Sequence record: LC788708.1
Strand: one strand, 5' to 3'
Source of the DNA: Escherichia coli phage AZ21
Length of the DNA stretch: 64,000 nucleotides
Below the pieces are notes generated by a model. The model worked only from the letters and a program-made list of their open reading frames with translations, had not been told where the DNA came from and searched no databases. The position numbers and the translations under genes are program-made. Below are positions 4,722-37,410 of the stretch, piece by piece (position 1 is the stretch's first letter; every line of letters starts with the position of its first letter).

Positions 4722-5171
4722 ATGAAGGCAGCTTTGCTTTTAGTAGCTGCCCTTACCTTCAGCTTTAGTAGTCAGGCATCGCACGATGCAAAAGAAATAG
4801 ATTGCATTGCTAAAAATATCTATTTCGAGAGTCGCGGTGAGGGCATAAAGGGAATGACGGCGGTTGCACATGTTACTAAAAACCGTGTAAACTCCGGTAA
4901 ATTCCCAGATTCCTACTGTAAAGTAGTATATCAGTCTAACCAGTTCTCTTGGGTATCTAAGAGACCAAAAGTTGATAAAACTGATGAGGCTTGGCAAACC
5001 GCTAAGAATTTAGCTAGAGTGATATACTACGTTGATTTACCACAAGATCCTACGTATGGAGCACTATACTTCCATAGTGGTAAAGATAAACCTTACTGGA
5101 CAAAGAAGTTTAAGAAAACAACTAAGATTAAGGGACATACGTTTTATAAACCTGTTGTCACTAAAACTTAA
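4722..5171 (+). CDS. secreted SleB-like cell-wall hydrolase (Hydrolase_2-like)
   Basis: N-terminal signal peptide MKAALLLVAALTFSFSSQA; IAKNIYFESRGEG...AHVTKNRV...YCKVVYQSNQFSW motif; AGGAG RBS; start moved from TTG 4704 to ATG 4722. Confidence 0.6.
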   Translation: MKAALLLVAALTFSFSSQASHDAKEIDCIAKNIYFESRGEGIKGMTAVAHVTKNRVNSGKFPDSYCKVVYQSNQFSWVSKRPKVDKTDEAWQTAKNLARVIYYVDLPQDPTYGALYFHSGKDKPYWTKKFKKTTKIKGHTFYKPVVTKT

Positions 5172-5179
5172 AAATTTAC

Positions 5180-5208
5180 TTGCTTAGCTACTTAAATTTC
5201 TGTATAAT
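5180..5208 (+). promoter_or_regulatory. T5-type early sigma70 promoter
   Basis: TTGCTT-17-TATAAT, leader TTTCATAAATTAATGAGAGG. Confidence 0.65.
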
Positions 5209-5239
5209 ACTTTCATAAATTAATGAGAGGAAGCGAAAT

Positions 5240-5410
5240 ATGAAATCAGTTGTAATTATTGGTGTTAACACTCGCGGTATTCGTACTACGAAAACTGTTA
5301 AAACTTCTAACGTTGCTGAAATCACTACGAACCCTAAAAAGTTTGATTTCGCCAAAGTCTCAGCAGTTATGACAGAACAATCTTTTAACCAAGCATTGGG
5401 GATGAAATAA
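5240..5410 (+). CDS. small hypothetical protein (56 aa)
   Basis: Short ORF directly behind promoter and GAGAGGAAGCGAAATATG RBS; stop overlaps next start (TAATG). Confidence 0.3.
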   Translation: MKSVVIIGVNTRGIRTTKTVKTSNVAEITTNPKKFDFAKVSAVMTEQSFNQALGMK

Positions 5411-5844
5411 TGGGTGAAAATATTCTAATGACCCTTCGTGGACTGCTTAGTCTAGCACGTACCCACGGTGATAAGGAGAGGGCACTTAATCTTCAGACCA
5501 TGATTGGTGATCTGCAACGTATTGATAAAGACATTGTTACTCGAACCGAGTTCGTAGCCTATCTGAAAGCTCAGATTAAGGCTCTAGAAAATGCAAAACA
5601 ACGCGCTATTAAAGTTGGTACGGAAGTTCCTACTGATGTAGACTATGAGCAACTGCTTTATTCCATGCTGCAAGAGTATCAGCCAAGTCAACTGACTGAA
5701 GTTCAGATTCGTGAGTATTTTGCAGAACTGGTTAAATTAAACCCAGGTATTACCAAAGCTCTATTAATGAAAACTATTAAGGCAGAATTTCCTGGACGTT
5801 ATGACGGTAAAACAACTGCTTTGATTGCTAGTGAATTTTTCTAA
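5410..5844 (+). CDS. hypothetical protein
   Basis: 144 aa ORF translationally coupled to upstream small ORF. Confidence 0.5.
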   Translation: MGENILMTLRGLLSLARTHGDKERALNLQTMIGDLQRIDKDIVTRTEFVAYLKAQIKALENAKQRAIKVGTEVPTDVDYEQLLYSMLQEYQPSQLTEVQIREYFAELVKLNPGITKALLMKTIKAEFPGRYDGKTTALIASEFF

Positions 5845-5852
5845 AAATTCAC

Positions 5853-5881
5853 TTGCTAAATGCTTATAAATTCTATATAAT
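5853..5881 (+). promoter_or_regulatory. T5-type promoter driving tRNA island
   Basis: TTGCTA-17-TATAAT about 80 nt upstream of first tRNA-like element. Confidence 0.6.
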
Positions 5882-5958
5882 ATATTCATAAATTAGATGA
5901 TAATTAGGCATCTAATTTATAAATAGTGGGGTGTGGAAATCACTTATGTAGTAACACT

Positions 5959-6030
5959 GCCGTCCTAGTATAATTGGTATTATCAAGCCGTAACTGGTGG
6001 AAGATGTAGGTTCGAATCCTACGGTCGGTA
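5959..6030 (+). tRNA. tRNA-like element (anticodon arm not resolved)
   Basis: GTAGG-TTCGAAT-CCTAC T-arm and 7-bp acceptor pairing (one mismatch) 70 nt downstream of promoter; no clean anticodon stem found by eye. Confidence 0.35.
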
Positions 6031-6532
6031 AGAACTGGATAACTGATGCTTTTAACGTAAAAGCTTCCGAGGTTAGTTGCGCACTGCCTAAACCACGCGG
6101 TAGTTGGTTCCAGACTAACCAACCAGTCTGCTGAATAGTTTTATTACGATTTAACTATGTCCAGGCTAAAGAAGAACTTTAGAAGGTATTCTAGGATAGT
6201 GAAGTTCTTTCTCCACATCGGAGTAGTTTTTCAAGCTATCCACAAAGTGGGAAATGCTGACATGAGAGATGTCACTAATGGTGCACAATAGCACAGGTAA
6301 TTCGCGATAATTCCTGTTGAGTAGCAGCAAAAGGCGGGAAGTCATGACCCCAAGCCTAACCGAGTCCTCAATATACCGCAGGGCATAACCACTAAGTCAC
6401 CCTGACTTAAACTGGAAAATAATAGACGTTACTGTATTTTGTCTTGAAATACTTAATGAGTGAGACTTATGACTCTCCCGGTATCGTCTGTATTTTTAAG
6501 AGTTTTTACGAGAGTTCTTAAAAATACTTAAA

Positions 6533-6607
6533 CGGGGTGTAGTCTAAGGGAGAGGCAGGAGTCTTCTAAATTCCTTTATGCAGGTTCGAATCCTGTCACC
6601 TCGGCCA
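6533..6607 (+). tRNA. tRNA-Arg (anticodon UCU)
   Basis: Acceptor CGGGGTG/CACCTCG, D-stem GTCT/AGGC, anticodon stem GGAGT/ATTCC with loop CTTCTAA, T-arm GCAGG-TTCGAAT-CCTGT, encoded CCA. Confidence 0.75.
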
Positions 6608-6641
6608 ATTTTATTAACTGTAACTAAAACAAAGGAAACAT

Positions 6642-7589
6642 ATGTTTAATACTAAAAATATGAAAGAATTGACTTCTGAGCAGAAAGTAATTCGTACTAT
6701 TAAACGTTGGGGTATTGGTGCTGTAGTTGGTTTAGCAGGTTTAATCCTAGCTTTTAATTCGTATACCATTGTTTCTGATGGTACGGTTAAAACCCAAACA
6801 TTCCTGGGTAAAGTAGACCCTAATCCAGTATTACCTGGTTTCCATCTTGTAAACCCGTTTGCATCTTTCGATACTTTTAGTACGAAAGATATTTCTATGA
6901 AACTGGATAAACTTCAGGTTCCTAGCCAGGATAAGTTTAAGTCTACAGTTGACATTACCGTTATGTTGCAGTTTGATGGTGCTAAAGCTCCTATTAACCG
7001 TGTTAACGCAGGTACTCAGGATCAAGCTCTGAACAAGTACGTTGAAGAGAAGATGCTGTCTACGATTCGTGAGTTTGGTAAGTCTGTACCAAAAGCACAA
7101 GATCTGTTCGACGCTAAGATTCAGGCTCAACTGCAAACCGCTATTCAGCAAGAAGTAGAAGAGTATGCGCGTCCTTATGGCTACACCGTTAAGCAAGTAT
7201 TCCTTCAGGATATTACTCTGCCACCGGTAATCATGGAACAGGTACAAAACACCAAAGTTCGTGAAGAACAAGTTAACGCTGCAAAAGCTGAACTAGCTCG
7301 TGTTGAACAAGAAGCACAGCAGAAAGTTAAGCAAGCTGAGGCTGATCGTTCTGCTCGTGAAAATATGGCAGTAGCTAACGAACGTGACGCAGATGCTAAA
7401 CTGTATGCGGCTAAGAAAGAAGCTGAAGCTAACACCGCTCTGCAGCGTACCATCACTCCAGAGATGATTCGCTGGAAACAGCTGGAAGTTGATATGAAAC
7501 GCGCTGAAAAATATCAGGGTGGCGTTCCTCAGACTGTTGTAGGTACTGGTTATGATGGCCAGATGATTATGGATATGCGTAATAAGTAA
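6642..7589 (+). CDS. SPFH/band-7 (prohibitin/HflC-like) membrane protein
   Basis: 315 aa; N-terminal TM helix then TQTFLGKV...PGFHLVNPF...TVDITVM SPFH-like core and long Ala/Glu/Lys coiled coil; followed by strong terminator. Confidence 0.65.
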   Translation: MFNTKNMKELTSEQKVIRTIKRWGIGAVVGLAGLILAFNSYTIVSDGTVKTQTFLGKVDPNPVLPGFHLVNPFASFDTFSTKDISMKLDKLQVPSQDKFKSTVDITVMLQFDGAKAPINRVNAGTQDQALNKYVEEKMLSTIREFGKSVPKAQDLFDAKIQAQLQTAIQQEVEEYARPYGYTVKQVFLQDITLPPVIMEQVQNTKVREEQVNAAKAELARVEQEAQQKVKQAEADRSARENMAVANERDADAKLYAAKKEAEANTALQRTITPEMIRWKQLEVDMKRAEKYQGGVPQTVVGTGYDGQMIMDMRNK

Positions 7590-7612
7590 TAGTTACACGT
7601 AATCTTCGAAAC

Positions 7613-7647
7613 AAGCCCGCGTTTCCTCCGAGAGCGCGGGCTTTTCT
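7613..7647 (+). terminator. rho-independent terminator
   Basis: AAGCCCGCG-loop-CGCGGGCTT followed by TTTTCT. Confidence 0.75.
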
Positions 7648-7792
7648 GTATTTAAGGCAAAAGAAAAGCCCATAAGTTATTCAACTAAGGTCTTTAGTAC
7701 TTAATTCTTTAGAATCATATACTATTATTGCAGCAACAACGTGCTACCACTAAATGCCCTACGATTTTCCTCTAAAAAGTTAAAAAATTCGA

Positions 7793-7821
7793 TTGCTTGA
7801 ATGCTAAATTCTCTGTATAAT
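7793..7821 (+). promoter_or_regulatory. T5-type early sigma70 promoter
   Basis: TTGCTT-17-TATAAT, leader TTTATAAATTTGAGAGAGG. Confidence 0.65.
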
Positions 7822-7851
7822 ATATTTATAAATTTGAGAGAGGAATCAAAT

Positions 7852-8148
7852 ATGAAACGCATTGTACTTGCATTGACTCTAGTATCTACTTCTGTATTTG
7901 CTGCTCCACAACAGGAACTTTGTCAAGTTCAAGTTTGTAATAAGCTAGAACGATTTACTTTGGATATTTGGTCACACATTAAAGATAATATGGGTGAGCA
8001 ATGTTTTGATATTGTTCTGCCAAAAGAACAAGCTGTTCCTGGTGCTGTTCTCAGCTCAGAATCACGTTGGTGGCAAGGTTCTTCTATCAATCCAACTAAG
8101 AAGTCAGTGACACGTATCAAACAAGTGTATCAGTGCAGTGTTCAGTAA
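7852..8148 (+). CDS. small secreted protein
   Basis: Signal peptide MKRIVLALTLVSTSVFAAP; RBS GAGAGAGGAATCAAATATG; upstream in-frame extension overlaps promoter so start set at 7852. Confidence 0.5.
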   Translation: MKRIVLALTLVSTSVFAAPQQELCQVQVCNKLERFTLDIWSHIKDNMGEQCFDIVLPKEQAVPGAVLSSESRWWQGSSINPTKKSVTRIKQVYQCSVQ

Positions 8149-8156
8149 AATTTCAC

Positions 8157-8185
8157 TTGCTTAATGCCGAAATTTTCTATATAAT
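8157..8185 (+). promoter_or_regulatory. T5-type early sigma70 promoter
   Basis: TTGCTT-17-TATAAT. Confidence 0.65.
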
Positions 8186-8216
8186 ATATTCTATAAATTA
8201 TAGATAGGAGTCATAT

Positions 8217-8735
8217 ATGACTGTTGACGAGTTAAAACAACATCTTTTATCTAGGGGCTTTGATAGTGATAAGTATCACTGTTGGCTCTCTCCACATGGA
8301 TGGTTAACAGTTCCACTGTATGATTTCTCTGGCATGTTACGTGGATATCAAACATATAACCCTAGTGCAGCTAAAGGTCATGGAAAATGTCCTTCTGAAG
8401 CTAAATATTTTACGCATTCTTCTACTCAATGTCTATGGGGTTTAGAAACTCTTACAGGTAATGAAGACCTAGTATTAGTTGCAGAATCTGTATTTAAAGC
8501 TGTGGCACTACACAACGCGGGATATCCCGCACTAGCAATGCTAGGATCTTCCCCTAGCAAAGCACTGCTAAAGCAGCTAAAATTACAACCTTTTAAAGTA
8601 GTAGCCGTAGGCGATAATGATTCTGCTGGTGAGAAGTTTGCTAAAAAACTAAATGGGTTTACTTCCCTCATGGATTTAGATGAAATGAATACAGAAAACT
8701 TGAAAAATTTTCTTGCCATGAAGCTAAATTTCTAA
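8217..8735 (+). CDS. Toprim-domain (DnaG-like) protein
   Basis: 172 aa; VLVAESVFKAVALHNAGYPALAMLGS...VVAVGDNDSAGEKFAKKL resembles primase Toprim E...DxD motif; no zinc-ribbon or polymerase domain. Confidence 0.45.
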   Translation: MTVDELKQHLLSRGFDSDKYHCWLSPHGWLTVPLYDFSGMLRGYQTYNPSAAKGHGKCPSEAKYFTHSSTQCLWGLETLTGNEDLVLVAESVFKAVALHNAGYPALAMLGSSPSKALLKQLKLQPFKVVAVGDNDSAGEKFAKKLNGFTSLMDLDEMNTENLKNFLAMKLNF

Positions 8736-8741
8736 TATAAT
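8713..8741 (+). promoter_or_regulatory. promoter embedded in 3' end of Toprim gene, driving tRNA-Ser/Met
   Basis: TTGCCA-17-TATAAT then TTCATAAATTTGG immediately before tRNA-Ser. Confidence 0.55.
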
Positions 8742-8755
8742 ATATTCATAAATTT

Positions 8756-8849
8756 GGAAGATTAACCCTAAAGGTAAGGGAGCTGTTTGCTAAACAGCCA
8801 GTAGCTGTGGAGACACGGTGTGCCAGTTCGAATCTGGCATCTTCCTCCA
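8756..8849 (+). tRNA. tRNA-Ser (anticodon GCU), type II
   Basis: Acceptor GGAAGAT/ATCTTCC, anticodon stem GCTGT/ACAGC with loop TTGCTAA, long variable arm CTGTG-GAGA-CACGG, T-arm GCCAG-TTCGAAT-CTGGC, CCA. Confidence 0.75.
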
Positions 8850-8854
8850 AATTT

Positions 8855-8932
8855 GGTTCTCAAGCTCATTTGGTATGAGCCGTCGCCTCATAAGCGAAAG
8901 GTAGGCAGGTTCGAATCCTCCGGGAGCCACCA
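8855..8932 (+). tRNA. tRNA-Met/Ile-type (anticodon CAU)
   Basis: Acceptor GGTTCTC/GGGAGCC (G-U pairs), D-stem GCTC/GAGC, anticodon loop CTCATAA, T-loop TTCGAAT, CCA. Confidence 0.65.
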
Positions 8933-8951
8933 AATTAAATAAGGACAACTA

Positions 8952-9140
8952 ATGGAATTATTCATAGTTTCTATTAAATTTGCACAAGATAGAGAACATT
9001 CGGACGAGTTTAAACAAGGGTACAGACTAGTAAAGGCTACATCTGAACTACATGCTATGGACAAAGTAGTAGACTATATGTATAAAGTAGAAGACGTTTA
9101 CTACGTCAATGCTTTAGAAGCCTCAAAAGTAATTAACTAG
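8952..9140 (+). CDS. hypothetical protein
   Basis: 62 aa ORF immediately after tRNA pair, RBS AAGGACAACTAATG. Confidence 0.4.
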   Translation: MELFIVSIKFAQDREHSDEFKQGYRLVKATSELHAMDKVVDYMYKVEDVYYVNALEASKVIN

Positions 9141-9148
9141 GAGACTAT

Positions 9149-9334
9149 ATGTCCAAATTTCAAGAACTCAAGCAAGAGCTAGAAGAGTGTGCCTGCCCAA
9201 AATGCTTCGGAGTAGGTGAGTGGAACGATGCTGAACCCGGTGATACACGGTATAATACATACGTTTGTACATATTGTAATGGTTCTGGTATTAATCCTGA
9301 ATGTGGTATTTCTCTAGACATTGAGCGAGGTTAA
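9149..9334 (+). CDS. small zinc-finger protein (DnaJ-type CxxCxGxG repeats)
   Basis: 61 aa; CPKCFGVGE and CTYCNGSGI motifs; RBS AGGAGACTATATG. Confidence 0.45.
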   Translation: MSKFQELKQELEECACPKCFGVGEWNDAEPGDTRYNTYVCTYCNGSGINPECGISLDIERG

Positions 9335-9674
9335 GATGGATATTTTTACTACTCCGGCAATAAACCTTTTAGGTGTTGGCTTGTTCCAAGCTACGGTGTA
9401 TCGTACTGATGATTCTACTGATGTGGTAACGTTCATCGTACCTGAGTTCTTCCTAGAAAAGTTCTTTGAAGAGTTTGAGCAGTTCCGTGAAGAACACAAT
9501 GCTCATTCCGATATGGAAGATCTAGCAGCTATGTTCCCTGCGGTTTACGGCTATATCTTTGAAGGTAATGGCCTAGATCTTAATAAATCTGAACTCGTTG
9601 AACTTAACTGGGGCATCAATTTTGAAGTTGGCTCTCCATTCCCTCGATATTTCCAGGGTTTAGAGATTCGCTAA
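9321..9674 (+). CDS. hypothetical acidic protein
   Basis: 117 aa ORF overlapping stop of upstream gene. Confidence 0.45.
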   Translation: MSEVKMDIFTTPAINLLGVGLFQATVYRTDDSTDVVTFIVPEFFLEKFFEEFEQFREEHNAHSDMEDLAAMFPAVYGYIFEGNGLDLNKSELVELNWGINFEVGSPFPRYFQGLEIR

Positions 9675-9682
9675 GATTACAT

Positions 9683-9759
9683 GGGGGTGTAATCGAATTG
9701 GCATAGGTACTGGACTTAAAATTCAGGTTTTGTGGGTTCGAATCCCACCACCCCTACCA
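9683..9759 (+). tRNA. tRNA, anticodon read as UAA (Leu-type) on short-variable-arm scaffold
   Basis: Acceptor GGGGGTG/CACCCCT, anticodon stem CTGGA/TTCAG with loop CTTAAAA, T-arm GTGGG-TTCGAAT-CCCAC, CCA; isotype uncertain. Confidence 0.6.
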
Positions 9760-9774
9760 AATTAAGGAAATAAA

Positions 9775-9897
9775 ATGAAAGCTATTAAGAAAGCACTGCG
9801 TAAATTTATGTATTGTCGTTTTCATAGCATCAAGGCTTCAACTAATGGTACTACTTACGATCGCTATGATCCTAAGTTTGGCTTACATTCTAAATAA
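9775..9897 (+). CDS. small hypothetical protein (40 aa)
   Basis: Short ORF with RBS AAGGAAATAAAATG right after tRNA. Confidence 0.3.
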   Translation: MKAIKKALRKFMYCRFHSIKASTNGTTYDRYDPKFGLHSK

Positions 9898-9910
9898 CTG
9901 GAGAAAACAA

Positions 9911-10117
9911 ATGGCTAATCCTGAAATTACGGCACAACGCTTTATGCTGAAAGGAATTATTGCTGAAGCAGGCATGACAGAAGAAGTTGCAGATTTTCAA
10001 AAGCAATTCCTCAATATTCTCACTCAAGCCAAAGAGCTAGGAGAGAAAGAACATGGCGCGGCTATTATGGCAATCACATTGGTTGGGCTTGATCTGGCTG
10101 AAGAATCAGGAGTTTAA
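9911..10117 (+). CDS. hypothetical protein
   Basis: 68 aa from ATG with RBS GGAGAAAACAAATG; in-frame upstream extension lacks RBS. Confidence 0.4.
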   Translation: MANPEITAQRFMLKGIIAEAGMTEEVADFQKQFLNILTQAKELGEKEHGAAIMAITLVGLDLAEESGV

Positions 10118-10206
10118 CTCCTCCAAGCAGAAATTTTAAAAATGTACTTGCTTTTTGCTTAAGATTTCTGCTATAATAGTTATATAAGTTGATGAGAGGA
10201 ATCAGA

Positions 10207-10482
10207 ATGTTAAAACGTTTTGCAGCAACTGGTATTGAAAGCTCAGTATGTAAATCCTGGGGTGGTTGGGAAGGTGAGATCGAGTGGCTTCAGTTCTACA
10301 ATGTAGAACTTCTTCCAGAGATCAAAGCTCAATGTATTGAGGCTGGTATGGCTCCTGATGCTACGGCTGATGTTGAAATCAGCATGAATAAGCTAGAGGG
10401 TCGAGTAGTCACTGTTACTGATGAAGGTGAAGAGGTATTCGAACTTCCATTCACTTTGAAAGTCACTCCTTCATTTGATTAA
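10207..10482 (+). CDS. hypothetical protein
   Basis: 92 aa; promoter and RBS GAGAGGAATCAGAATG. Confidence 0.45.
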   Translation: MLKRFAATGIESSVCKSWGGWEGEIEWLQFYNVELLPEIKAQCIEAGMAPDATADVEISMNKLEGRVVTVTDEGEEVFELPFTLKVTPSFD

Positions 10483-10518
10483 CTGATACAGCACTGAGCA
10501 AGTTCTTTAAAATTTGAC

Positions 10519-10547
10519 TTGCTCAGTGCCTTAAAACTTGATATAAT
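10519..10547 (+). promoter_or_regulatory. promoter upstream of tRNA-Tyr
   Basis: TTGCTC-17-TATAAT. Confidence 0.55.
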
Positions 10548-10612
10548 ATTTATCTAATTTGGAAACATATTTAAAAGTGTTTAAATGAGAATTTTTGAAT
10601 ACTTCTAAATAT

Positions 10613-10700
10613 GGGCGTTTATTCCGTAAGTGGTAGCGGAGGGGATTGTAAATCCCTGGTCATTGCGACTCGAGTGGTTCGACTCCATTAACGCCCACCA
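10613..10700 (+). tRNA. tRNA-Tyr (anticodon GUA), type II
   Basis: Acceptor GGGCGTT/AACGCCC, anticodon stem GGGGA/TCCCT with loop TTGTAAA, long variable arm, T-loop TTCGACT, CCA. Confidence 0.7.
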
Positions 10701-10717
10701 AATTAAAGGTAAAGGAT

Positions 10718-10909
10718 ATGTATATTGATCGGATAATTCAAGAAGCTGCAAATAGGGGTATTATACAGTTGGGTTCACCCGCTGATATAAATAAAGATCT
10801 AATATTAGAAAGCCTCACATTTGGTACAGCTAACTTTGGTCGCGATAGTAATCGTCGATATAGCTTGAAGTTATCTGCACTATCTTTTATCAAGTATAAC
10901 AAATTATAG
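10718..10909 (+). CDS. hypothetical protein
   Basis: 63 aa ORF between two tRNAs, RBS AAAGGTAAAGGATATG. Confidence 0.3.
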   Translation: MYIDRIIQEAANRGIIQLGSPADINKDLILESLTFGTANFGRDSNRRYSLKLSALSFIKYNKL

Positions 10910-10983
10910 TTAGTTGGCAGAGTGGTTATGCACCTCCTTCATACGGAGCGACTACAGTGGTTCAACTCCACTACTAACTACCA
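10908..10983 (+). tRNA. tRNA-Met/Ile-type (anticodon CAU)
   Basis: Acceptor AGTTAGT/ACTAACT, anticodon stem CTCC/GGAG with loop TTCATAC, T-arm AGTGG-TTCAACT-CCACT, CCA. Confidence 0.65.
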
Positions 10984-11166
10984 AAGATAAGATCAGGCCT
11001 TTGTGCCAGATCTCTGTGTTTATTAAACTGAATGGGACTATCAATCCACAAGCCGGACTACGAGCGATTATCGGGTATTCACTTAATAAACAGCCTGCCT
11101 CCCAGTTTTTATCTTGCTTCTGGGTTAACAAAAAGCTGAGCCAAATTCTAACATCAGGGAGATCTA

Positions 11167-11535
11167 ATGAAAGCATATCAAAGTCTTAAGTCTGGCGTAA
11201 TTAACCTTGTTCATGATAACCAGATCATTCAGCTATATTCTAAAGATGGTGAACTTAAACAAAAGGTTCTAGTTGAAGATCTAGAGGGTATCACACCTCA
11301 TTTTGACCCTGAGGCCTTCCGCATTGTAGATGTAGAAGTGGTTCCTCAAGTCGAGGGTGGTCAGCACCTAAATGTCAATGTGTTAAGCCGTGATCAGCTT
11401 TTGGATGCACAGAAACATCCTGAAAAATATCCTCAGTTGACCATCCGTGTCTCTGGCTATGCTGTTCGATTTAACGCATTGACGCGTGAACAACAGAACG
11501 ACGTTATTAGTCGTACATTTACTCAGGCGATATAA
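11167..11535 (+). CDS. grcA: GrcA-like autonomous glycyl-radical cofactor protein
   Basis: 122 aa; C-terminus [12 protein letters not shown]...[36 protein letters not shown] closely matches the E. coli GrcA/PFL glycyl-radical domain incl. RVSGY glycine site. Confidence 0.8.
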
Positions 11536-11616
11536 TGGGGTTTGGATACGATTTCTCCCAACTACGCAAGGTAGTCGAGCAAACTCCATTTATCTCCCAA
11601 GTTTTAGGAGAAATGT

Positions 11617-11916
11617 GTGGATCGAGCATTAAGACGCCATCACCGGCAACGTGTGAAAAACAATCGCAAGAAGTATTGGACAGTCTTCCCACATGAAGAA
11701 AGCCCTAAGAGGTTAGGCATTATCACTACCACTCCTTGCATCTGTTCTTGTTGGATGTGTGGGAATCCTCGCAAATACTATAAGAATAGTAAAGCAGGCA
11801 TGAAAATTTCGGAGATTAAAAAGATGGATGCAATGATTATGGGCATCACCTTTACAGGTGGTATCTCTGATGAATTCGACGGTTTTGTAACTCAGGATAT
11901 TGTCGAAATTATCTAA
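11617..11916 (+). CDS. hypothetical Cys-rich basic protein
   Basis: 99 aa; TPCICSCWMCGNPRKYY cluster; followed by terminator. Confidence 0.45.
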   Translation: MDRALRRHHRQRVKNNRKKYWTVFPHEESPKRLGIITTTPCICSCWMCGNPRKYYKNSKAGMKISEIKKMDAMIMGITFTGGISDEFDGFVTQDIVEII

Positions 11917-11925
11917 TTAATAATA

Positions 11926-11962
11926 AACCCCAGCTATTGAATACGTAGTCTGGGGTTTTCTT
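11926..11962 (+). terminator. rho-independent terminator
   Basis: AACCCCAG-loop-CTGGGGTT followed by TTCTT. Confidence 0.65.
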
Positions 11963-11980
11963 GTATATAGGATTTTCGAA

Positions 11981-12166
11981 ATGAAAATTTTTAAAGTGAA
12001 CTATAGCGGCCTGTGGTTAGGTGGTACAGCTATTGTTGTTGCGGAAACTGCGGAAGAAGCAATCGAACTGGCTAGAAATCATAGAAGTTCTATAGAATTC
12101 GAGAATGTGACAGCAGAAGAACTCCCTAGCAGTGGGGTAGTATACAACGATAACGGAGACTACTAA
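11981..12166 (+). CDS. hypothetical protein
   Basis: 61 aa ORF after terminator. Confidence 0.4.
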   Translation: MKIFKVNYSGLWLGGTAIVVAETAEEAIELARNHRSSIEFENVTAEELPSSGVVYNDNGDY

Positions 12167-12225
12167 ATGTTATATTTTGAAGTTAGACCACATTAAGTTA
12201 CTTTAACAGACTTAATGGAGGTATT

Positions 12226-12579
12226 ATGAGCCGTACATATCGTAAACAATCGGGGAATCGTCACTGGCGTGATGCACATCGTTCTAAATTCAACTTTACT
12301 CTTGGGTACAATCGTCGTTTCTTTGCTTTGAAGGAGCCAGCAGTCCCGTATACTAGAGAAGAAGTTGAAAAGGAATTACAAGACGATATCATTAAATATG
12401 AGAAGAAGGATGGTTATAACTGGAATTCCATTAGTAAGAATGTTAAGTGGCACTCTAATAAAATGGTTCGTCAAGGGAATCGTCAAGAACTTCACCGCGT
12501 GATGAAAGATCCAGAAAATTACGACTATAATCGCGATCATGACATGCGTAAGCGTGGGTTATGGTGGTGCTATGACTAA
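12226..12579 (+). CDS. hypothetical protein
   Basis: 117 aa ORF, RBS GGAGGTATTATG. Confidence 0.5.
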   Translation: MSRTYRKQSGNRHWRDAHRSKFNFTLGYNRRFFALKEPAVPYTREEVEKELQDDIIKYEKKDGYNWNSISKNVKWHSNKMVRQGNRQELHRVMKDPENYDYNRDHDMRKRGLWWCYD

Positions 12580-12596
12580 ATTCTGAAATAATTCAT

Positions 12597-12625
12597 TTGC
12601 TAAACCTCTCTTTTCTTGCTATAAT
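12597..12625 (+). promoter_or_regulatory. T5-type early sigma70 promoter
   Basis: TTGCTA-17-TATAAT, leader TTTATAAATTGATGAGAGAGG. Confidence 0.65.
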
Positions 12626-12655
12626 ATGTTTATAAATTGATGAGAGAGGTTTGAA

Positions 12656-12937
12656 ATGAAAACTCGTCTAGACTGTGCTGTTCATGTTCTTGAGCATGAT
12701 GTTGCGGGAACCTGTATGTCCTACCATGAAGCAGGTCGTTTAATTAAAGAACGTGTGGCAGATGTGTGCGGATTGAAGATTACTGCTGAGGAAGCTGATG
12801 ATCTTTTAGGTCAAGCACTGGAGAAAACCGAAATGTTCCTCTGCGATTCTTGTTCTTGGTGGTGTGAAGCTCACGAACGTTCTTTCAACGATTATGATGT
12901 ATGTCGTGATTGTAGTGGGGAGGATGAAGATGAATAA
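12656..12937 (+). CDS. hypothetical Cys-rich protein
   Basis: 93 aa; CDSCSWWC and CRDCSGEDEDE C-terminus; promoter and RBS upstream. Confidence 0.5.
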   Translation: MKTRLDCAVHVLEHDVAGTCMSYHEAGRLIKERVADVCGLKITAEEADDLLGQALEKTEMFLCDSCSWWCEAHERSFNDYDVCRDCSGEDEDE

Positions 12938-13229
12938 GTTTATTATTGCACTGATGATCTCCGCAGTTAGTTTCGGTTCTCTGGCGTCTACCAAAGTTTC
13001 TATGAAAAATGGTAATGTTAAAGTCCAACAGAACGGTATTATTACCGAGTATGGTAAAGTTCGCGATGTTAAAGAACGTAATGGTAAAGTAGAAATCTAT
13101 ACTAATAAAAACTTCTCTACTCCAGCCGTTACTATTGGCAAACGTGGTGAAATAACCACTCAACGTACTAATAGTTCCAGCTCTTTTACTTGTCGTTATG
13201 ATTGCGACTTTGAAGGTGAAGATGAATAA
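12930..13229 (+). CDS. small secreted protein
   Basis: Signal peptide MNKFIIALMISAVSFGSLAS; start overlaps upstream stop; ends CDFEGEDE. Confidence 0.5.
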   Translation: MNKFIIALMISAVSFGSLASTKVSMKNGNVKVQQNGIITEYGKVRDVKERNGKVEIYTNKNFSTPAVTIGKRGEITTQRTNSSSSFTCRYDCDFEGEDE

Positions 13230-30560: not shown

Positions 30561-30743
30561 TTATTCCCCTTTACTAGTCATGCAGCCCAGCAGATAAGAA
30601 AATACAGCGATGCCAGCACCAATAGTAACCATTGGTTTTATATTTACTAAACCGCAATAGGAATCCTGAATACCATAAGCGGTGGCGAAAAGAGTCAAAA
30701 TAGCGCCCAAGATACCCGCTAAAATAGCTCGAAAAATAACCAT
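30561..30743 (-). CDS. small membrane protein
   Basis: 60 aa with two hydrophobic helices; preceded by GGGGCG-loop-CGCCCC hairpin. Confidence 0.45.
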   Translation of the reverse strand: MVIFRAILAGILGAILTLFATAYGIQDSYCGLVNIKPMVTIGAGIAVFSYLLGCMTSKGE

Positions 30744-30792
30744 TTGTAATACTCCTCTAGTTAGTGGGGCGAAAGTAACGCCCCGTTATTAA

Positions 30793-31023
30793 TTACATTA
30801 AAATAATTTTTGCCGCTTGTTTTTTGGTACAGTGTTCCGCTTTCAGGGTGTCCAGCAAAAAGCCCGCCGTTTGCTGATCGATTTTATCGGCATTATATAG
30901 TTCTTGGATGGTGTTATAAGTTTTAGCAATGCCGTATTCTTGTACCATTTCTTGAATAATCCAGCGATTTGATACCCAGCCTTTACCAGTGAAAAGAGCG
31001 TCAGAAGAAGAGTAAGCAACCAT
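30793..31023 (-). CDS. hypothetical protein
   Basis: 76 aa from ATG with RBS GGAGGCTTAAAATG (minus strand); longer track ORF lacks RBS. Confidence 0.45.
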   Translation of the reverse strand: MVAYSSSDALFTGKGWVSNRWIIQEMVQEYGIAKTYNTIQELYNADKIDQQTAGFLLDTLKAEHCTKKQAAKIILM

Positions 31024-31086
31024 TTTAAGCCTCCAAATTTTTGGGAAAATTTTCAACCGTCCTCAAACGGTGTAAAGGCATTATAA

Positions 31087-31115
31087 CAAAAAAGGCCGCC
31101 ATAAAAGGCGACCTT
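31087..31115 (-). terminator. rho-independent terminator (minus strand)
   Basis: AGGTCGCC-loop-GGCGGCCT hairpin followed by TTTTTT on minus strand, right after the stop of 31130-31624. Confidence 0.5.
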
Positions 31116-31129
31116 TACAAAACTTTACA

Positions 31130-31624
31130 TTAAACTACTTGTAAGGATTCAATATTGAAACATCGTTTCAGTTCGTCATGCAAAACGGCATATTCATCCC
31201 ATCGGGTACTATCAGGAATATAAACAAGCTGTTTTAATCGGTTTGCATATATTACCGCTTTGTTATCAATTATCTCGACGCCACCATATTTAATAATTAA
31301 TTTCATGACGGAATTAATAGGATCGCCGCCGTTTACATATGCGCCGGATTTACTTAATTGATAATGATAAAGGCTTGCATATACGTTTTCATTTTCATAC
31401 CATTCGCCAGTCTCTTCGTCTTCATAGCCATCGCTACCAAAACGAGAAGCATTATCAACAGCCATTTCATGAGCAAAAGCGTCCAGATCCGTACCAGCAG
31501 GAACAAAATATTCCTCGGTATTCCCTTCCCCGCAATAGCCAGTATGACAATCGACTAAAATGATCATATCATGTTTAGCCTTGCTCACTTCCCCTAGCGA
31601 GAAGCCGTATTTTTCTTCTAACAT
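31130..31624 (-). CDS. hypothetical acidic protein
   Basis: 164 aa from ATG with RBS GGAGAC; acidic run DGYEDEETGEWYENENVY. Confidence 0.5.
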   Translation of the reverse strand: MLEEKYGFSLGEVSKAKHDMIILVDCHTGYCGEGNTEEYFVPAGTDLDAFAHEMAVDNASRFGSDGYEDEETGEWYENENVYASLYHYQLSKSGAYVNGGDPINSVMKLIIKYGGVEIIDNKAVIYANRLKQLVYIPDSTRWDEYAVLHDELKRCFNIESLQVV

Positions 31625-31688
31625 AATTAGTCTCCTATTAATTAACAAGGAAATAGTAAAGCGGGGAAATAATCCCCGCTAGATATTA

Positions 31689-31922
31689 TTACTCGTTTTC
31701 GGTGTTAGTGGTAAAAGTAGAGATATCGATACCTTTTACCATTTCATCGATCATCTCAGCGATGTTAAAACTTTGCACCATTTCTAACATTGCCGCTTCC
31801 ATAGCCGCCCCTGCTACCGCTTTCGCTTTCTGATTAGTCGGGGCGTACTGGTCAACCGCTACACTCAGCAGGTTAGCGATCACTACACGACCAATCGGCG
31901 TATCAATATAGCCTTTGATCAT
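31689..31922 (-). CDS. hypothetical protein, possibly C-terminal part of a frameshifted gene
   Basis: 77 aa ORF overlapping end of 31903-32694 by 20 nt; reachable by +1 shift at an A7 run. Confidence 0.4.
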   Translation of the reverse strand: MIKGYIDTPIGRVVIANLLSVAVDQYAPTNQKAKAVAGAAMEAAMLEMVQSFNIAEMIDEMVKGIDISTFTTNTENE

Positions 31923-32694
31923 AAACGGTGCTTTTTTTAGCCGCTACTTTCGTGATTTGAGTTAGTGCAATTTTACCAGCTTCCAGTTTTGCAGCGTTTA
32001 CAACAGCGGATTTATTAGCGGCAACGATATTAGCGATCTTGGTCATGGTATTTTTTCCTTTGTTTTCAGTAGTTTGAGTATTAACGCTTTGAGTGTTAGA
32101 GCTTACAACCTGTTTTTCAATATTGTCAACTGGTTTTAGTGTAAATCCAGCATTTGCAACGTTTGATTCATTCCCATACTCTAAATAATCACTAGGGATC
32201 AACATGTTGCCACTAGCGCGTTCAAAACATAACACGCCAGTTGTAGAAATTACATTACTATCAGCACTTTTGTAATTAGCTGATAGTTCACGCCAAATGC
32301 TAGTTAATAACGATCCGACACTATCAGTCCTGATATTACTTACTTTTGTTGCTGTTACTTGCTCTTTTTCTTGCACGTTATATAATCGCGCAATGTAACC
32401 ACTATTAGATTCACTATAACCAACAATGATAAAATCAATATCTCTTCCACGTTGATTGCGGAAAATGTGATAATCACGGTTGAAAATTACTAGCGCCCTT
32501 TTCTGGTCTAGTAATTGTGTGAAATCTTCAACTGAATAATGAGTACCCTCATCGTCTAAAATTCTATCATGAATCTTTTCGATAATAGTAGCGGTATGCT
32601 GTACGCTTGCCGCGCTACTACCCTCTAACAGATTGCGCAAACTGCCTTTAATAATAGTGGCGTTTGCTGGTACTGCAATTCTTACAGTAGACAT
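31903..32694 (-). CDS. hypothetical protein (first gene of minus-strand operon)
   Basis: 263 aa ORF, Ser/Thr/Asn-rich middle, Ala/Lys-rich C-terminus; ends just after A7 homopolymer. Confidence 0.5.
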   Translation of the reverse strand: MSTVRIAVPANATIIKGSLRNLLEGSSAASVQHTATIIEKIHDRILDDEGTHYSVEDFTQLLDQKRALVIFNRDYHIFRNQRGRDIDFIIVGYSESNSGYIARLYNVQEKEQVTATKVSNIRTDSVGSLLTSIWRELSANYKSADSNVISTTGVLCFERASGNMLIPSDYLEYGNESNVANAGFTLKPVDNIEKQVVSSNTQSVNTQTTENKGKNTMTKIANIVAANKSAVVNAAKLEAGKIALTQITKVAAKKSTVYDQRLY

Positions 32695-32960
32695 TTTATT
32701 TTGTCTCCCTCGTTAATCGGTGAGTGAATGATAAGGGTAATTTTCTAGCATAGGCAAATATTATTTTACTTTTTTATTTTCCTTGCCTAGCGTCTAATTT
32801 TATGCTAACCGCGCAGCGGTGCAATAAAGAGCAAACCACGGCGAAGCCACCAGCCCGACGCATTGAGGCTTTACTTTAATATTACCTTACAGCGTTTAGC
32901 TCGTTAGAATGCGTTTTGGGCCACTTAAAATTGATTGCAGTTGTTAACACTACCTTTCTA

Positions 32961-32980
32961 CCCTGTATATTTATACAGTG
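32961..32980. promoter_or_regulatory. LexA (SOS) box
   Basis: CCCTGTATATTTATACAGTG with perfect CTGT-N8-ACAG core, about 270 bp upstream of the first minus-strand gene. Confidence 0.55.
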
Positions 32981-32988
32981 GAATAACC

Positions 32989-33397
32989 TGTGGATAAGTC
33001 TGTGCAAAAGTCCTTATATCACCGCCTATCGTGTCAAGTTATTTTGTGCTGTGGAAAACATTGTGGATAACTTAAATGATAGTGCTTCTCACTTAGGCTA
33101 ATGATTTCTTATAGTTATTATTTCTCATTAATTTATAAGTATATTATATATTATCAAATAGTTAGTTGGCTAATGAGATTTTCCGTGATTAATAGTCTGC
33201 TAATAATTCAGGTCGTTACAATCCACCAGCATGATTATCATTCTAGCAATTATTAGTCTGCTATCTTTCCGATACATACTAACAAATAAAAGTCAATTAA
33301 TTTATTTCATAAAATAAGTAGTTATCCACTGGAAAATAAAAGTCAAGTGGATAACTAGGAAAATTTCATTTTTGCTTTTGGGGATAAGTTATCAACA
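32989..33397. promoter_or_regulatory. DnaA-box cluster
   Basis: TGTGGATAA at 32989 and 33062, TTATCCAC at 33322, GTGGATAA at 33347, TTATCAACA at 33389. Confidence 0.55.
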
Positions 33398-33799
33398 AGG
33401 CTAGAATGCGCCTAAAACGCTCCAGAACGCGATGAAGTTTTTAGCCACCCCATCATAAGGGGATAGGCCGTTTATCGCTGCCACGAGCTTTTTAGATTTT
33501 GTCAAGTAGGGGAAAGCAAATATAAATGAAAAAATTACTTGCCTATTTGCTTTATTTTGTGGTATTCGCGCCCGTTTCTTTTAATTTTAGGCCGTCGCCG
33601 GACGTGGTGCGGTGAATTTTGTCTTTACGTTTCTTTACAAAAATAAGGTTGCGCCATTTTCGGGAATCCCCTATTATTTATCACGTAGGGCGGCAATGAC
33701 GAACTACACGGCGGGAAGTTTACCGCCACGCTCTTTAAAAATTGGGTACATCTTAAAGCCTATCGGCGGTAAACTTATTTATTATAAGGAATCGACGAT

Positions 33800-34012
33800 A
33801 TGAAACAAACTTTATTGATCACTGGCAAGCCTATTAAGGCACTAGATAGCAAAACAAAAAATTTGTTGACAGTAGCGCAAAGATCGGTAAAATACCGATT
33901 CACGCAGTACAAGAAAGACCGCCAGCAAGGTTTAGAAATGATCTGGCGAAACATTATGATTGACTTGAAAGAAAATCATAAAAAACTGCAAAAAAATTAT
34001 TTGACAACCTAG
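33800..34012 (+). CDS. hypothetical ORF (doubtful)
   Basis: 70 aa ORF but contains internal TTGACA-17-TAAAAT promoter-like sites; may be non-coding. Confidence 0.2.
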   Translation: MKQTLLITGKPIKALDSKTKNLLTVAQRSVKYRFTQYKKDRQQGLEMIWRNIMIDLKENHKKLQKNYLTT

Positions 34013-34233
34013 CCGATAGGTTTTAAGATGTACCCAGTTCGATAAGAGCGATAACTTGATAAAATTTGACGGTCGGTGCTTACCATAATGCGCCCCGCCC
34101 CCTAACGGGATATAGCGGCCTACGTGGAGTTCTTTAAATTGATTATAGCGGCGAGAGGATTGTTACTTATTACCTGCTAGTATTTTCTAGTAGGTAATAA
34201 GTAACAATCCATCAAATAACTGGAGTTTATATT

Positions 34234-34485
34234 ATGCAAAACGTTATTACCGCGCCTAAAATTGGTCAATCCGTCTTTATTCCTTTCGTTACTAAAACGG
34301 ATGAATTAACCGGAAAGGCCGAACGTATTAAAGGTGCGGCGCTTATGCCGTTCGATACAATCGACGCGGTATATGCTGAAAATGAACGCAGTAACAACGG
34401 CAAGCCCGTTTTTAGCGTTCGCGTTAAATCCGGCGATGTTGTAAAGGTTGTTCAACGCAACGAAAAATGGGAAGCTGTGTTGTAA
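34234..34485 (+). CDS. pre-early hypothetical protein
   Basis: 83 aa, RBS AACTGGAGTTTATATTATG; followed by perfect 9-bp hairpin. Confidence 0.5.
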   Translation: MQNVITAPKIGQSVFIPFVTKTDELTGKAERIKGAALMPFDTIDAVYAENERSNNGKPVFSVRVKSGDVVKVVQRNEKWEAVL

Positions 34486-34583
34486 TTTAGTGTTAACTTT
34501 ATATCCCCCTTATTTCAGGGGGATATAACGATTAACATTAAGTTAATCTAATCCCTTAAATTAAACTAATAGGAGTTTTTACC

Positions 34584-34991: not shown

Positions 34992-35081
34992 TAGTTATAC
35001 CTTGCCCCCTTCTAGTGAGGGGGCACTAATATAACTGTTTAGCGATAGTTATTTTCTTCCCTTAAATCAGGAGTTTTAAAA

Positions 35082-35279: not shown

Positions 35280-35366
35280 TGTTGCAAATTATAACGCCTA
35301 TTATTCGAGGCGTTATATTTGGCAATATTGCCATTATTAACCTAATCCCTTTAATGGAGTTTTATT

Positions 35367-37037: not shown

Positions 37038-37093
37038 TTAAATTATTTCCCTAGCGGCTTGAAATACAGCCGCTATTACAGGAGCTAAATTAA

Positions 37094-37372: not shown

Positions 37373-37410
37373 ATTAAATATCTTATTAAATTAATTGGAG
37401 TTTTACAAAT

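What the first reader, a model, noticed from the sequence alone, without database searches (positions are those of the whole stretch)
8217..8741. Toprim-only protein with a tRNA promoter embedded in its 3' end
The 172-aa product has a DnaG-like Toprim motif but no zinc-binding or polymerase domain. The last 25 codons contain a full TTGCCA-17-TATAAT promoter that drives the tRNA-Ser/Met pair, so coding and regulatory functions overlap.
Basis: seen in the sequence. Interest (0 to 1): 0.4.

Follow-up and report, generated by a model that had tools for sequence, protein, structure and literature searches.

The report
Known anti-retron gene with tRNA promoter
This is the T5-family phage gene rad, a small primase-like protein already reported to disarm bacterial retron defences, and its last codons carry an early promoter (P15b) that the phage T5 record already annotates in front of the downstream tRNA genes, so the feature is real but known.

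Summary
The window comes from a T5-like phage (Demerecviridae). ORF 8217-8735 (172 aa) is the ortholog of T5.076 / T5 ORF071 / PhiSP15 ORF75. It is 86% identical over its full length to PhiSP15 ORF75, which a 2023 preprint named Rad (retron anti-defense). In that work Rad blocks five retrons and lowers their msr-msd RNA and msDNA.

The TTGCCA-17-TATAAT promoter is real. It is one of about 20 T5-class early promoters in the window and corresponds to "promoter P15b" in the T5 RefSeq record. Synonymous variation is almost absent in the last 14 codons of 11 T5-like phages. Only the -35 hexamer, the spacer and the A/T-rich upstream tract lie inside the ORF. The -10 hexamer starts right after the stop codon.

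Verdict: real, already known, low interest.

The parts
8157..8185 (+). The gene's own early promoter (TTGCTT-17-TATAAT). It sits where T5 has P15a relative to the gene.
   Evidence: Found by the T5-class pattern scan. T5 annotates 'promoter P15a' directly upstream of T5.076. Upstream sequences are compared.
8206..8210 (+). Ribosome-binding site AGGAG, 6 nt before the ATG.
   Evidence: Read directly from the sequence.
8217..8735 (+). rad (retron anti-defense) CDS, 172 aa. It is a minimal DnaG-type catalytic core (N-subdomain plus Toprim) with no zinc-binding domain.
8693..8767 (+). Stretch equivalent to the 75-nt feature 'promoter P15b' of the T5 RefSeq record.
   Evidence: Coordinates mapped from NC_005859 37247-37321, using the stop of T5.076 as anchor. 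The stretch is almost invariant in the window, T5, SP15 and IrisVonRoten.
8701..8711 (+). A/T-rich tract around -43 (GAAAAATTTTC), inside codons 162-165.
   Evidence: All promoters of this class in the window carry the same tract. The AKFV33 paper describes an AAAAATT tract near -43.
8713..8718 (+). -35 hexamer TTGCCA, inside codons 166-168. T5 has TTGCTA, a synonymous difference.
8736..8741 (+). -10 hexamer TATAAT, starting at the first base after the TAA stop codon.
8748..8748 (+). Predicted transcription start (A), 8 nt before the tRNA-Ser 5' end. Inferred, not mapped.
   Evidence: The sequence TATAAT-ATATTC-A-TAAATT matches the +1 region consensus of this promoter class. The start position is by analogy with T5 promoter PN25, from my own knowledge.
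8756..8849 (+). tRNA-Ser(GCU).
   Evidence: ARAGORN. Ortholog of T5 tRNA-Ser3.
8855..8932 (+). tRNA with anticodon CAU. ARAGORN calls it Met. It is the ortholog of the gene annotated tRNA-Ile2(CAU) in T5.

Best explanation
The window is from a T5-like phage, and the ORF is rad, the 'retron anti-defense' gene of the T5 anti-defence island.

The protein. It is a stand-alone minimal DnaG-type catalytic core: the N-terminal subdomain with primase-like motifs plus a Toprim domain. The metal-binding acidic residues E90, D133, D135 and D153/E156 are kept. There is no zinc-binding domain and no helicase-binding domain.

Expression (inferred). The gene is transcribed early by host sigma-70 RNA polymerase from its own T5-class promoter at 8157-8185.

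Function. Published experiments show that the protein stops retron defence systems from aborting the infection and lowers retron msr-msd non-coding RNA and msDNA. I infer that this happens through metal-dependent action of the Toprim active site on the retron RNA or RNA-DNA hybrid. No in vitro activity has been reported.

The embedded promoter. The last ~14 codons double as the upstream half of a second T5-class early promoter, the ortholog of T5 P15b. The A/T tract, the -35 hexamer and the spacer lie inside the coding sequence, and the -10 hexamer starts right after the stop codon. Transcription is predicted to start at about 8748, 8 nt before tRNA-Ser(GCU). The transcript should cover tRNA-Ser, tRNA(CAU) and probably the small ORFs and tRNA-Leu further on. 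RNase P would trim the short leader (inferred).
For: Identity of the gene:
- The window is a T5-like phage: megablast at 99-100% to Epseptimavirus and T5-like records.
- The synteny is the same as T5.076, which precedes tRNA-Ser3 and tRNA-Ile2.
- The protein is 86% identical over all 172 residues to PhiSP15 E0157_075 (ORF75).
- The preprint names ORF75 Rad. It reports protection against Ec67, Ec78, Ec83, Ec48 and Se72, and reduced msr-msd RNA and msDNA. Its mutants R13E, P33T, I88T, D135H and E156H lose activity. These numbers match R13, P33, V88, D135 and E156 of the window protein.
[quoted passage not shown] AY587007 places that CDS at the same position.
- The Privateer homolog, also active in the preprint, is 45% identical.

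Fold and residues:
- AlphaFold: pLDDT 94.2, pTM 0.89.
- A profile of the family hits the E. coli DnaG sequence at E=3e-8.
- L10, R13, G43, Y64, E90, A95, D133, D135, G138 and D153 are invariant in 25 relatives.

Not the replicative primase:
- T5 encodes pri (T5.121) with a zinc ribbon, DnaG_N and Toprim, in the same cluster as the DnaB-like helicase D6 and directly upstream of the polymerase.
- Viable T5Mos carries a deletion 30661-38625 that covers the gene. The T5n and SP15m deletion mutants are viable too.

Promoter:
- 11 of 12 match to the consensus.
- Full extended match to the ~20 T5-class promoters in the window: 26 found against 5.7 expected.
- T5 annotates P15b at the equivalent place.
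- In 11 T5-like sequences only 2 of the last 39 ORF nucleotides (481-519) vary, against about 30% elsewhere. Third codon positions vary in 2 of 16 codons at the end against 90 of 156 elsewhere (Fisher p=9e-4).
- The promoter is more conserved than the tRNA-Ser body it precedes.
Against: - The anti-retron function rests on one preprint, read. The RNA-degradation step there is inferred from lower RNA and msDNA levels in cells, not from a nuclease assay.
- The window protein itself was not tested. It is 86% identical to the tested one.
- The fold is that of a nucleotidyl transferase (primase), not of a known RNase.
- No transcription-start mapping for P15b was found in the searchable literature. 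The T5 record does not say how the promoter was defined.
- Read-through from the upstream promoter could also supply the tRNAs.
Confidence: 0.85

Rival explanations
1. It is what many records call it: an accessory or back-up DNA primase. It would make RNA primers on phage DNA, with template recognition supplied in trans by another protein.
For: - The whole protein has the DnaG/T7 gp4 catalytic-core fold.
- It shows sequence homology to DnaG.
- The acidic metal-binding residues are invariant.
- PHROG 849 'DNA primase' matches at E=1e-56.
- In Guernseyvirinae and Privateer the homolog sits in a replication module.
Against: - There is no zinc-binding domain and no helicase-binding domain.
- T5 has a canonical primase in its replication gene cluster, near the DnaB-like helicase and directly upstream of the polymerase.
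- Kagunavirus also has a separate 740-aa helicase/primase.
- The gene is deleted in viable T5 and SP15 mutants.
- An anti-retron phenotype is reported for three homologs.
- The clade has Lys in place of the Asp of the Toprim EGxxD motif.
- Aromatic residues stand where E. coli DnaG has Arg in the PIRD and GFGGR motifs.
Confidence: 0.07
2. It is a tRNA-related enzyme, for example a Toprim RNase that processes or repairs the phage's own tRNA transcripts. That would explain why it sits in tRNA arrays.
For: - Homologs lie inside tRNA clusters in T5-likes, Novosibvirus (L006), L020, L059 (161-kb contig) and L061 (182-kb contig).
- In Vibrio phage F102 the homolog lies next to a tRNA nucleotidyltransferase gene.
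- Toprim RNases exist: RNase M5 appears among the fold hits.
Against: - 18 of the 27 homolog loci scanned have no tRNA gene nearby. These include a Guernseyvirinae-like 44-kb contig and a Privateer-like 92-kb contig.
- The preprint reports that T5 and SP15 suffer no harm from losing this region except on retron hosts.
- The tRNA region is itself described as an anti-defence island, which explains the co-location.
Confidence: 0.05
3. The TTGCCA-17-TATAAT match is not a working promoter. The tRNAs would be made only by read-through from the promoter upstream of the ORF.
For: - Generic sigma-70-like matches are not enriched in this A/T-rich region: 18 found against 21.4 expected.
- No terminator separates the ORF from the tRNAs.
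- No start-site mapping was found.
Against: - The site matches the extended T5 early-promoter class on both sides of the hexamers.
- It is annotated as P15b in T5.
- Synonymous sites in the overlapping codons are almost invariant across phages that differ at 22% of the ORF's nucleotides.
Confidence: 0.05

Closest known systems
Rad (retron anti-defense), PhiSP15 ORF75 / T5 ORF071 = T5.076 (Azam et al. 2023, bioRxiv 10.1101/2023.03.15.532788)
   Same: - 86% identity over the full length.
- Same position directly upstream of tRNA-Ser and tRNA(CAU) in the tRNA/anti-defence region.
- The functionally tested residues are conserved (R13, P33, D135, E156; I88 is V88 here).
   Different: - The window protein is the Epseptimavirus-type allele and was not itself tested.
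- The SP15 record starts the CDS 17 codons further upstream (189 aa). The window has no in-frame start there, and the published residue numbers fit the 172-aa form.
Promoter P15b of phage T5 (NC_005859 37247-37321) and the T5 early-promoter class (-35 TTGCTw, 17-18 nt spacer, -10 TATAATA, A/T-rich -43 and +1 regions)
   Same: - Same place relative to the gene and to tRNA-Ser.
- Almost identical sequence from -55 to +8.
- Same extended consensus.
   Different: - The -35 hexamer is TTGCCA here and TTGCTA in T5, one synonymous change.
- Among the 19 promoters of this class with a 17-nt spacer in window 1-30 kb, this is the only one whose -35 and spacer lie inside a coding sequence.
DnaG-type primase RNA-polymerase domain (E. 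coli DnaG core 1DD9/1EQN, Aquifex 2AU3, T7 gp4 primase 1NUI, Twinkle)
   Same: - The Toprim Glu, the DxD motif and a third acidic motif are conserved.
   Different: - No zinc-binding domain.
- No helicase-binding or helicase domain.
- About half the size of the bacterial core.
- E-S-V-F-K in place of E-G-x-x-D.
- Not essential, and the reported role is anti-defence.
RNase M5 (Toprim ribonuclease, 6TG6/6Z2B) and the Mycoplasma MG010-type 'primase-like' protein (TIGR00646)
   Same: - Small Toprim proteins without a zinc finger.
- RNase M5 shows that a Toprim site can cut structured RNA.
- MG010 gives a weak hit (E=1e-5) over residues 23-147.
   Different: - The TIGR00646 score of 25 bits is far below its cut-off of 260.

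Membership tests
[quoted passage not shown] | Orthology to PhiSP15 ORF75 / T5 ORF071 | tested here: met
   86% identity, 172 of 172 residues aligned, E=9e-106. 78% nucleotide identity to T5.076 with no gaps.
[quoted passage not shown] | Position in the tRNA/anti-defence island, directly upstream of tRNA-Ser(GCU) and tRNA(CAU) | tested here: met
   Homologs of the other island parts (ORF71, ORF72, ORF74 and tRNA-Tyr) are also present.
[quoted passage not shown] | Residues whose mutation lowered activity (R13, P33, I88, D135, E156) | tested here: met
   R13, P33, D135 and E156 are identical. Position 88 is Val instead of Ile.
[quoted passage not shown] | Protection of phage against retrons, with reduced msr-msd RNA and msDNA | not testable with these tools
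   Known only from the preprint, for the SP15, T5 and Privateer proteins.
DnaG-type DNA primase | CHC2 zinc-binding domain for template recognition | tested here: not met
   No Zn_ribbon_DnaG hit and no Cys/His cluster. The protein starts at the 'HLLSRGF' motif that opens the catalytic core. T5.121 does hit PF01807.
DnaG-type DNA primase | RNA-polymerase core fold (N-subdomain plus Toprim) | tested here: met
   [not shown]
DnaG-type DNA primase | Full set of Toprim acidic residues (E-G-x-x-D, D-x-D, later D) | tested here: inconclusive
   E90, D133, D135 and D153 are invariant. The Asp of EGxxD is Lys94 in this clade. More distant relatives keep the Asp.
DnaG-type DNA primase | Helicase-binding C-terminal domain or fused helicase, and a place in the replication module | tested here: not met
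   The protein ends about 25 residues after the Toprim domain. The gene lies in the tRNA region, about 33 kb from T5's helicase-primase-polymerase cluster.
DnaG-type DNA primase | Template-directed oligoribonucleotide synthesis | not testable with these tools
   No biochemical data found.
T5-class sigma-70 early promoter | -35 TTGCTw-like hexamer, 17-18 nt spacer, -10 TATAAT(A) | tested here: met
   TTGCCA, 17 nt, TATAATA at 8713-8742. Consensus as given in PMC3326045.
T5-class sigma-70 early promoter | A/T-rich tract near -43 (AAAAATT) and a +1 region TAAATT | tested here: met
   GAAAAATTTTC lies before the -35 hexamer and ATATTCATAAATTT follows the -10 hexamer. The other ~20 sites in the window look the same.
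T5-class sigma-70 early promoter | Conservation beyond what the coding sequence requires | tested here: met
   Third codon positions vary in 2 of the last 16 codons against 90 of 156 elsewhere, p=9e-4.
T5-class sigma-70 early promoter | Mapped transcription start or RNA polymerase binding | not testable with these tools
   The T5 record names the site P15b but gives no method. No start-site data were found in the searchable literature.

The most novel reading that the evidence does not exclude
Rad may not be a plain RNase. It keeps the whole primase catalytic core, so it could act on retrons through a primase-like activity. For example, it could bind the single-stranded msDNA or its template RNA and add or extend ribonucleotides. 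Alternatively, it could use a re-tooled active site for cleavage, with Lys94 replacing the Asp of EGxxD. In that reading, the ~170-aa zinc-finger-less 'mini-DnaG' proteins would be a broad, uncharacterised class of anti-defence or nucleic-acid-modifying enzymes rather than primases. This family has about 200 clusters at E<=1e-30, and most members are stand-alone proteins. My evidence does not exclude this reading, but it does not show it either.
Probability: 0.15. Interest if true: 0.55.

Novelty: already known. Interest (0 to 1): 0.15.

Why it matters
It matters little as a discovery. The gene (T5.076 / ORF071 / Rad) and the promoter (P15b) are both in the public T5 annotation, and the anti-retron role is in the literature.

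Three points are useful:
- Many records still label this gene 'DNA primase' or 'hypothetical protein'. It should be read as rad.
- The protein is a full minimal DnaG-type core, not a bare Toprim domain. That bears on how Rad might act, and the mechanism is still unproven.
- The promoter overlap is a clean small example of dual coding. The synonymous sites of the last 14 codons are frozen by a promoter.

Tried and rejected
- A single-sequence search against PDB sequences gave only chance hits to xylanases. The family profile was needed to reach DnaG.
- BLASTP against T5's canonical primase T5.121 found only the short DxD stretch. The two genes are therefore not recent paralogs.
- I asked whether the short protein is the sole primase of Guernseyvirinae, which would have argued for a true primase. 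Kagunavirus JSSK01 also has a 740-aa 'replicative helicase/primase', so I rejected this.
- I looked for a zinc-finger partner next to the gene. The 45-aa ORF after the Kagunavirus homolog looks like a coiled coil, not a zinc ribbon. The 61-aa ORF at window 9149-9334 has a DnaJ-type CxxCxGxG pattern, not a primase-type one.
- I considered a tRNA-processing role because the gene recurs in tRNA arrays. I judged it less likely than the anti-defence-island explanation.
- Literature searches for 'T5.076', for T5 transcription-start data and for later work on Rad found nothing beyond the 2023 preprint and papers that cite it.

Full report
WHAT IS THERE

The window is from a T5-like phage (Demerecviridae, Markadamsvirinae).
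- Bases 7000-12000 match E. coli phage AZ23 at 100% and many Epseptimavirus and T5-like records at 96-99.5%.
- The ORF runs from 8217 to 8735 on the + strand and encodes 172 aa. AGGAG lies six bases before the ATG.
- tRNA-Ser(GCU) at 8756-8849 and a tRNA with anticodon CAU at 8855-8932 follow, 20 nt after the stop.
- TTGCCA (8713-8718), a 17-nt spacer and TATAAT (8736-8741) are present. This is the best sigma-70 match in window 5000-13000.
- The stop codon is 8733-8735, so the -10 hexamer begins at the first intergenic base. Only the -35 hexamer, the spacer and the upstream A/T-rich tract are coding.

THE PROTEIN

Sequence evidence:
- Pfam finds a significant Toprim domain at residues 86-146 and nothing else.
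- PHROG 849 'DNA primase' matches residues 3-167 at E=1e-56.
- An alignment of 25 relatives, down to 25% identity to the window protein, has ten invariant columns: L10, R13, G43, Y64, E90, A95, D133, D135, G138 and D153. R13 lies in the 'HLLSRGF' motif that opens DnaG catalytic cores. Y64 lies in a K/R-Y motif. E90 is the Toprim Glu, and D133 and D135 form the DxD motif.
- A profile of the family reaches the E. coli, Aquifex and S. aureus DnaG sequences at E=3e-8 to 1e-7, from the N-subdomain motifs through DxD.

Structure evidence:
- AlphaFold2 on that alignment gives a confident model (pLDDT 94.2, pTM 0.89).

So the protein is not 'Toprim-only'. It is a complete but minimal DnaG-type core, made of the N-subdomain and the Toprim domain. 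It lacks the zinc-binding domain and any helicase-binding part.

Departures from DnaG:
- The Asp of the Toprim E-G-x-x-D motif is Lys94 (E-S-V-F-K-A) in this clade. More distant short relatives keep EGVFDA.
- In the profile alignment, aromatic residues stand where E. coli DnaG has Arg in 'PIRD' and 'GFGGR'.

WHAT IT IS KNOWN AS

- In the T5 RefSeq record the same gene is T5.076. It is labelled 'DNA primase' on the strength of the Toprim match and lies directly upstream of tRNA-Ser3(GCU) and tRNA-Ile2(CAU).
- In AY587007 it is the 'DNA primase' CDS between ORF070 and ORF072.
- The source preprint is Azam et al. 2023, 10.1101/2023.03.15.532788. It identifies ORF75 of phage SP15 as rad.
  - Rad rescues deletion mutants from retrons Ec67, Ec78 and Ec83, and rescues lambda vir from Ec48 and Se72.
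  - Rad lowers msDNA and msr-msd RNA but not the RT or effector transcripts.
  - The mutations R13E, P33T, I88T, D135H and E156H weaken it.
- SP15 E0157_075 sits at the same place and is 86% identical to the window protein over all 172 residues.
- The mutated residues carry the numbers of the 172-aa form: R13, P33, V88, D135 and E156 in the window protein.
- The Proteus phage Privateer homolog, also active in the preprint, is 45% identical.

The ORF is therefore rad.

NOT THE REPLICATIVE PRIMASE

- T5 encodes a canonical primase (pri, T5.121; zinc ribbon, DnaG_N and Toprim). It lies in the same cluster as the DnaB-like helicase D6, separated from it by one homing-endonuclease gene, and directly upstream of the polymerase.
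- BLASTP between the window protein and T5.121 finds only the DxD stretch.
- The viable variant T5Mos lacks 30661-38625, which covers the gene.
- T5n and SP15m, which lack the ~8-kb island, are viable and become retron-sensitive.
- Kagunavirus, whose 171-aa homolog sits next to a helicase and a polymerase, also has a separate 740-aa helicase/primase.

THE FAMILY

- A full HMMER scan of 1.84 billion cluster representatives finds 201 clusters at E<=1e-30 and 808 at E<=1e-10.
About 50 carry the Lys variant and about 88 the Asp variant.
- In IMG/VR contigs, most homologs are stand-alone ORFs of 165-230 aa with no Cys/His cluster.
- The gene lies inside tRNA arrays in T5-likes, Novosibvirus, L020, L059 and L061. 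In Vibrio phage F102 it lies beside a tRNA nucleotidyltransferase gene. Most other loci have no tRNA nearby.
- The preprint's view of the T5 tRNA region as an anti-defence island accounts for the co-location.

THE PROMOTER

- The T5 record annotates 'promoter P15b' at 37247-37321. It overlaps the last 43 nt of T5.076 and runs into tRNA-Ser3. It also annotates 'P15a' upstream of the gene. Mapped onto the window, P15b is 8693-8767.
- A scan for TTG-N3-N16-18-TATAAT finds 26 sites in the window against 5.7 expected from shuffles. About 20 of these, nearly all on the + strand of the first 28 kb, share the extended T5 early-promoter pattern: an A/T tract near -43, TTGCTw, 'AAATTTCT' before the -10, TATAATA, and 'TTCATAAATT' at +1. 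The site at 8713-8741 fits this pattern on both sides. The pattern agrees with the consensus described for phage AKFV33.
- Across 11 T5-like sequences, about 30% of ORF positions vary and the window and T5 ORFs are 78% identical. Yet only 2 of the last 39 nucleotides (481-519) vary. Third codon positions vary in 2 of the last 16 codons against 90 of 156 elsewhere (Fisher p=9e-4).
- In a four-phage alignment, the stretch from about -55 to +8 is nearly invariant and is more conserved than the body of tRNA-Ser.
- Overlap of the promoter's upstream part with the end of the preceding ORF is common here. 11 of 19 promoters have an ORF ending within 20 nt upstream of the -35 hexamer. This is the only one with the -35 and spacer inside the ORF.
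- In the more distant Novosibvirus homolog, the C-terminus differs and no such promoter is present. The tRNAs there probably depend on the promoter upstream of the gene.

INFERRED STEPS

- The start at A8748, eight bases before the tRNA, is by analogy with T5 PN25, from my own knowledge.
- Trimming of the leader by RNase P is assumed.
- The extent of the transcript is not shown. No terminator-like site is found on the + strand between 8741 and the next promoters at about 10.15 and 10.52 kb. The transcript probably also covers the three small ORFs and tRNA-Leu, not just the tRNA pair.
- Read-through from 8157-8185 may add to it.
- No start-site data for T5 were found.

MECHANISM AND ITS LIMITS

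Shown by others in cells: protection from retrons, and reduced ncRNA and msDNA.

Shown here: orthology, the fold, conserved metal-binding residues, and the absence of a zinc finger.

Inferred: the Toprim site acts directly on retron RNA or on the RNA-DNA hybrid. A primase-like action on msDNA, or simple binding, is not excluded. I give that reading about 15%.

VERDICT

The gene and the promoter are both already known. Novelty: already known. Interest: low.

Noticed in passing
window 1-64000; tRNAs at 6533-6607, 8756-8849, 8855-8932, 9683-9759, 10613-10700, 10908-10983: This phage carries only 6 tRNA genes, whereas the T5 record annotates 25 tRNA features in the same region. Even so, it keeps rad and tRNA-Tyr, the two elements reported to counter retron Ec78.
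   Followed up: partly
window about 7650-7790, between the SPFH/band-7 gene (6642-7589) and the next ORF: Compared with its closest relatives (AZ23, bombadil), the window lacks about 1.8 kb carrying nadR and pnuC. The megablast match is split into two pieces that span 6842 bp of the AZ23 record for 5001 bp of query.
   Followed up: no
window 8855-8932: ARAGORN calls the tRNA with anticodon CAU 'Met'. It is the ortholog of the gene annotated tRNA-Ile2(CAU) in T5. It differs from the T5 gene mainly by paired changes in the anticodon stem.
   Followed up: partly
window 8952-9137, 9911-10114, 10207-10479, 10613-10700: Homologs of PhiSP15 ORF74, ORF72 and ORF71 (61-74% identity) and tRNA-Tyr are present. 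The preprint attributes anti-Ec83 activity to a pair of small ORFs in this island fragment and gives their numbers inconsistently (ORF71/72 in the text, ORF72/73 in the legend). It attributes anti-Ec78 activity to tRNA-Tyr. The T5 'anti-defence island' is therefore largely present here.
   Followed up: partly
window residue 94 of the ORF (codon at 8496-8498); loci L009-L088: The Rad clade has Lys where DnaG, T7 gp4 and RNase M5 have the Asp of the Toprim E-G-x-x-D motif (ESVFKA against EGVFDA). Among 176 relatives collected, about 50 have Lys and 88 have Asp. The functional meaning is unknown.
   Followed up: partly
L006 2995-3516, L020, L059 2471-3013, L061 2489-3004, L008 3001-3537: Rad-like genes sit inside tRNA gene arrays in unrelated large phages (Novosibvirus and contigs of 108, 161 and 182 kb). 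In Vibrio phage F102 the gene lies next to a tRNA nucleotidyltransferase gene.
   Followed up: partly
L013 and L015, just upstream of 2501: In two T5-like contigs the terminator hairpin of the SPFH gene (the same one as at window 7613-7643) is fused directly to the -10 hexamer of rad's own promoter. This suggests deletion variants that lack the -35 region.
   Followed up: no
L063, L066-L068, L073, L075; hits H46, H48, H51-H53: In Erwinia and Klebsiella jumbo phages the homolog appears as two tblastn pieces or as ORFs of 83-138 aa. It may be split by a frameshift, an intron or decay.
   Followed up: no
L089 10931-11500 (SP15 E0157_075): The SP15 record starts rad 17 codons upstream, giving 189 aa. 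That start lies in or before the gene's own promoter, and the published residue numbers fit the 172-aa form. The longer start is probably an annotation artefact.
   Followed up: partly
window 7801-8148: The mechanical ORF start at 7801 lies inside a T5-class promoter (7793-7821). The real gene probably starts at the ATG at 7852 (MKRIVLALTLVSTSVFA..., which looks like a signal peptide) and encodes 98 aa, as annotated in phage bombadil.
   Followed up: no
window 9149-9334: This 61-aa ORF has two CxxCxGxG motifs (DnaJ-type zinc-finger pattern). Relatives annotate it as 'antitermination protein Q-like'.
   Followed up: no
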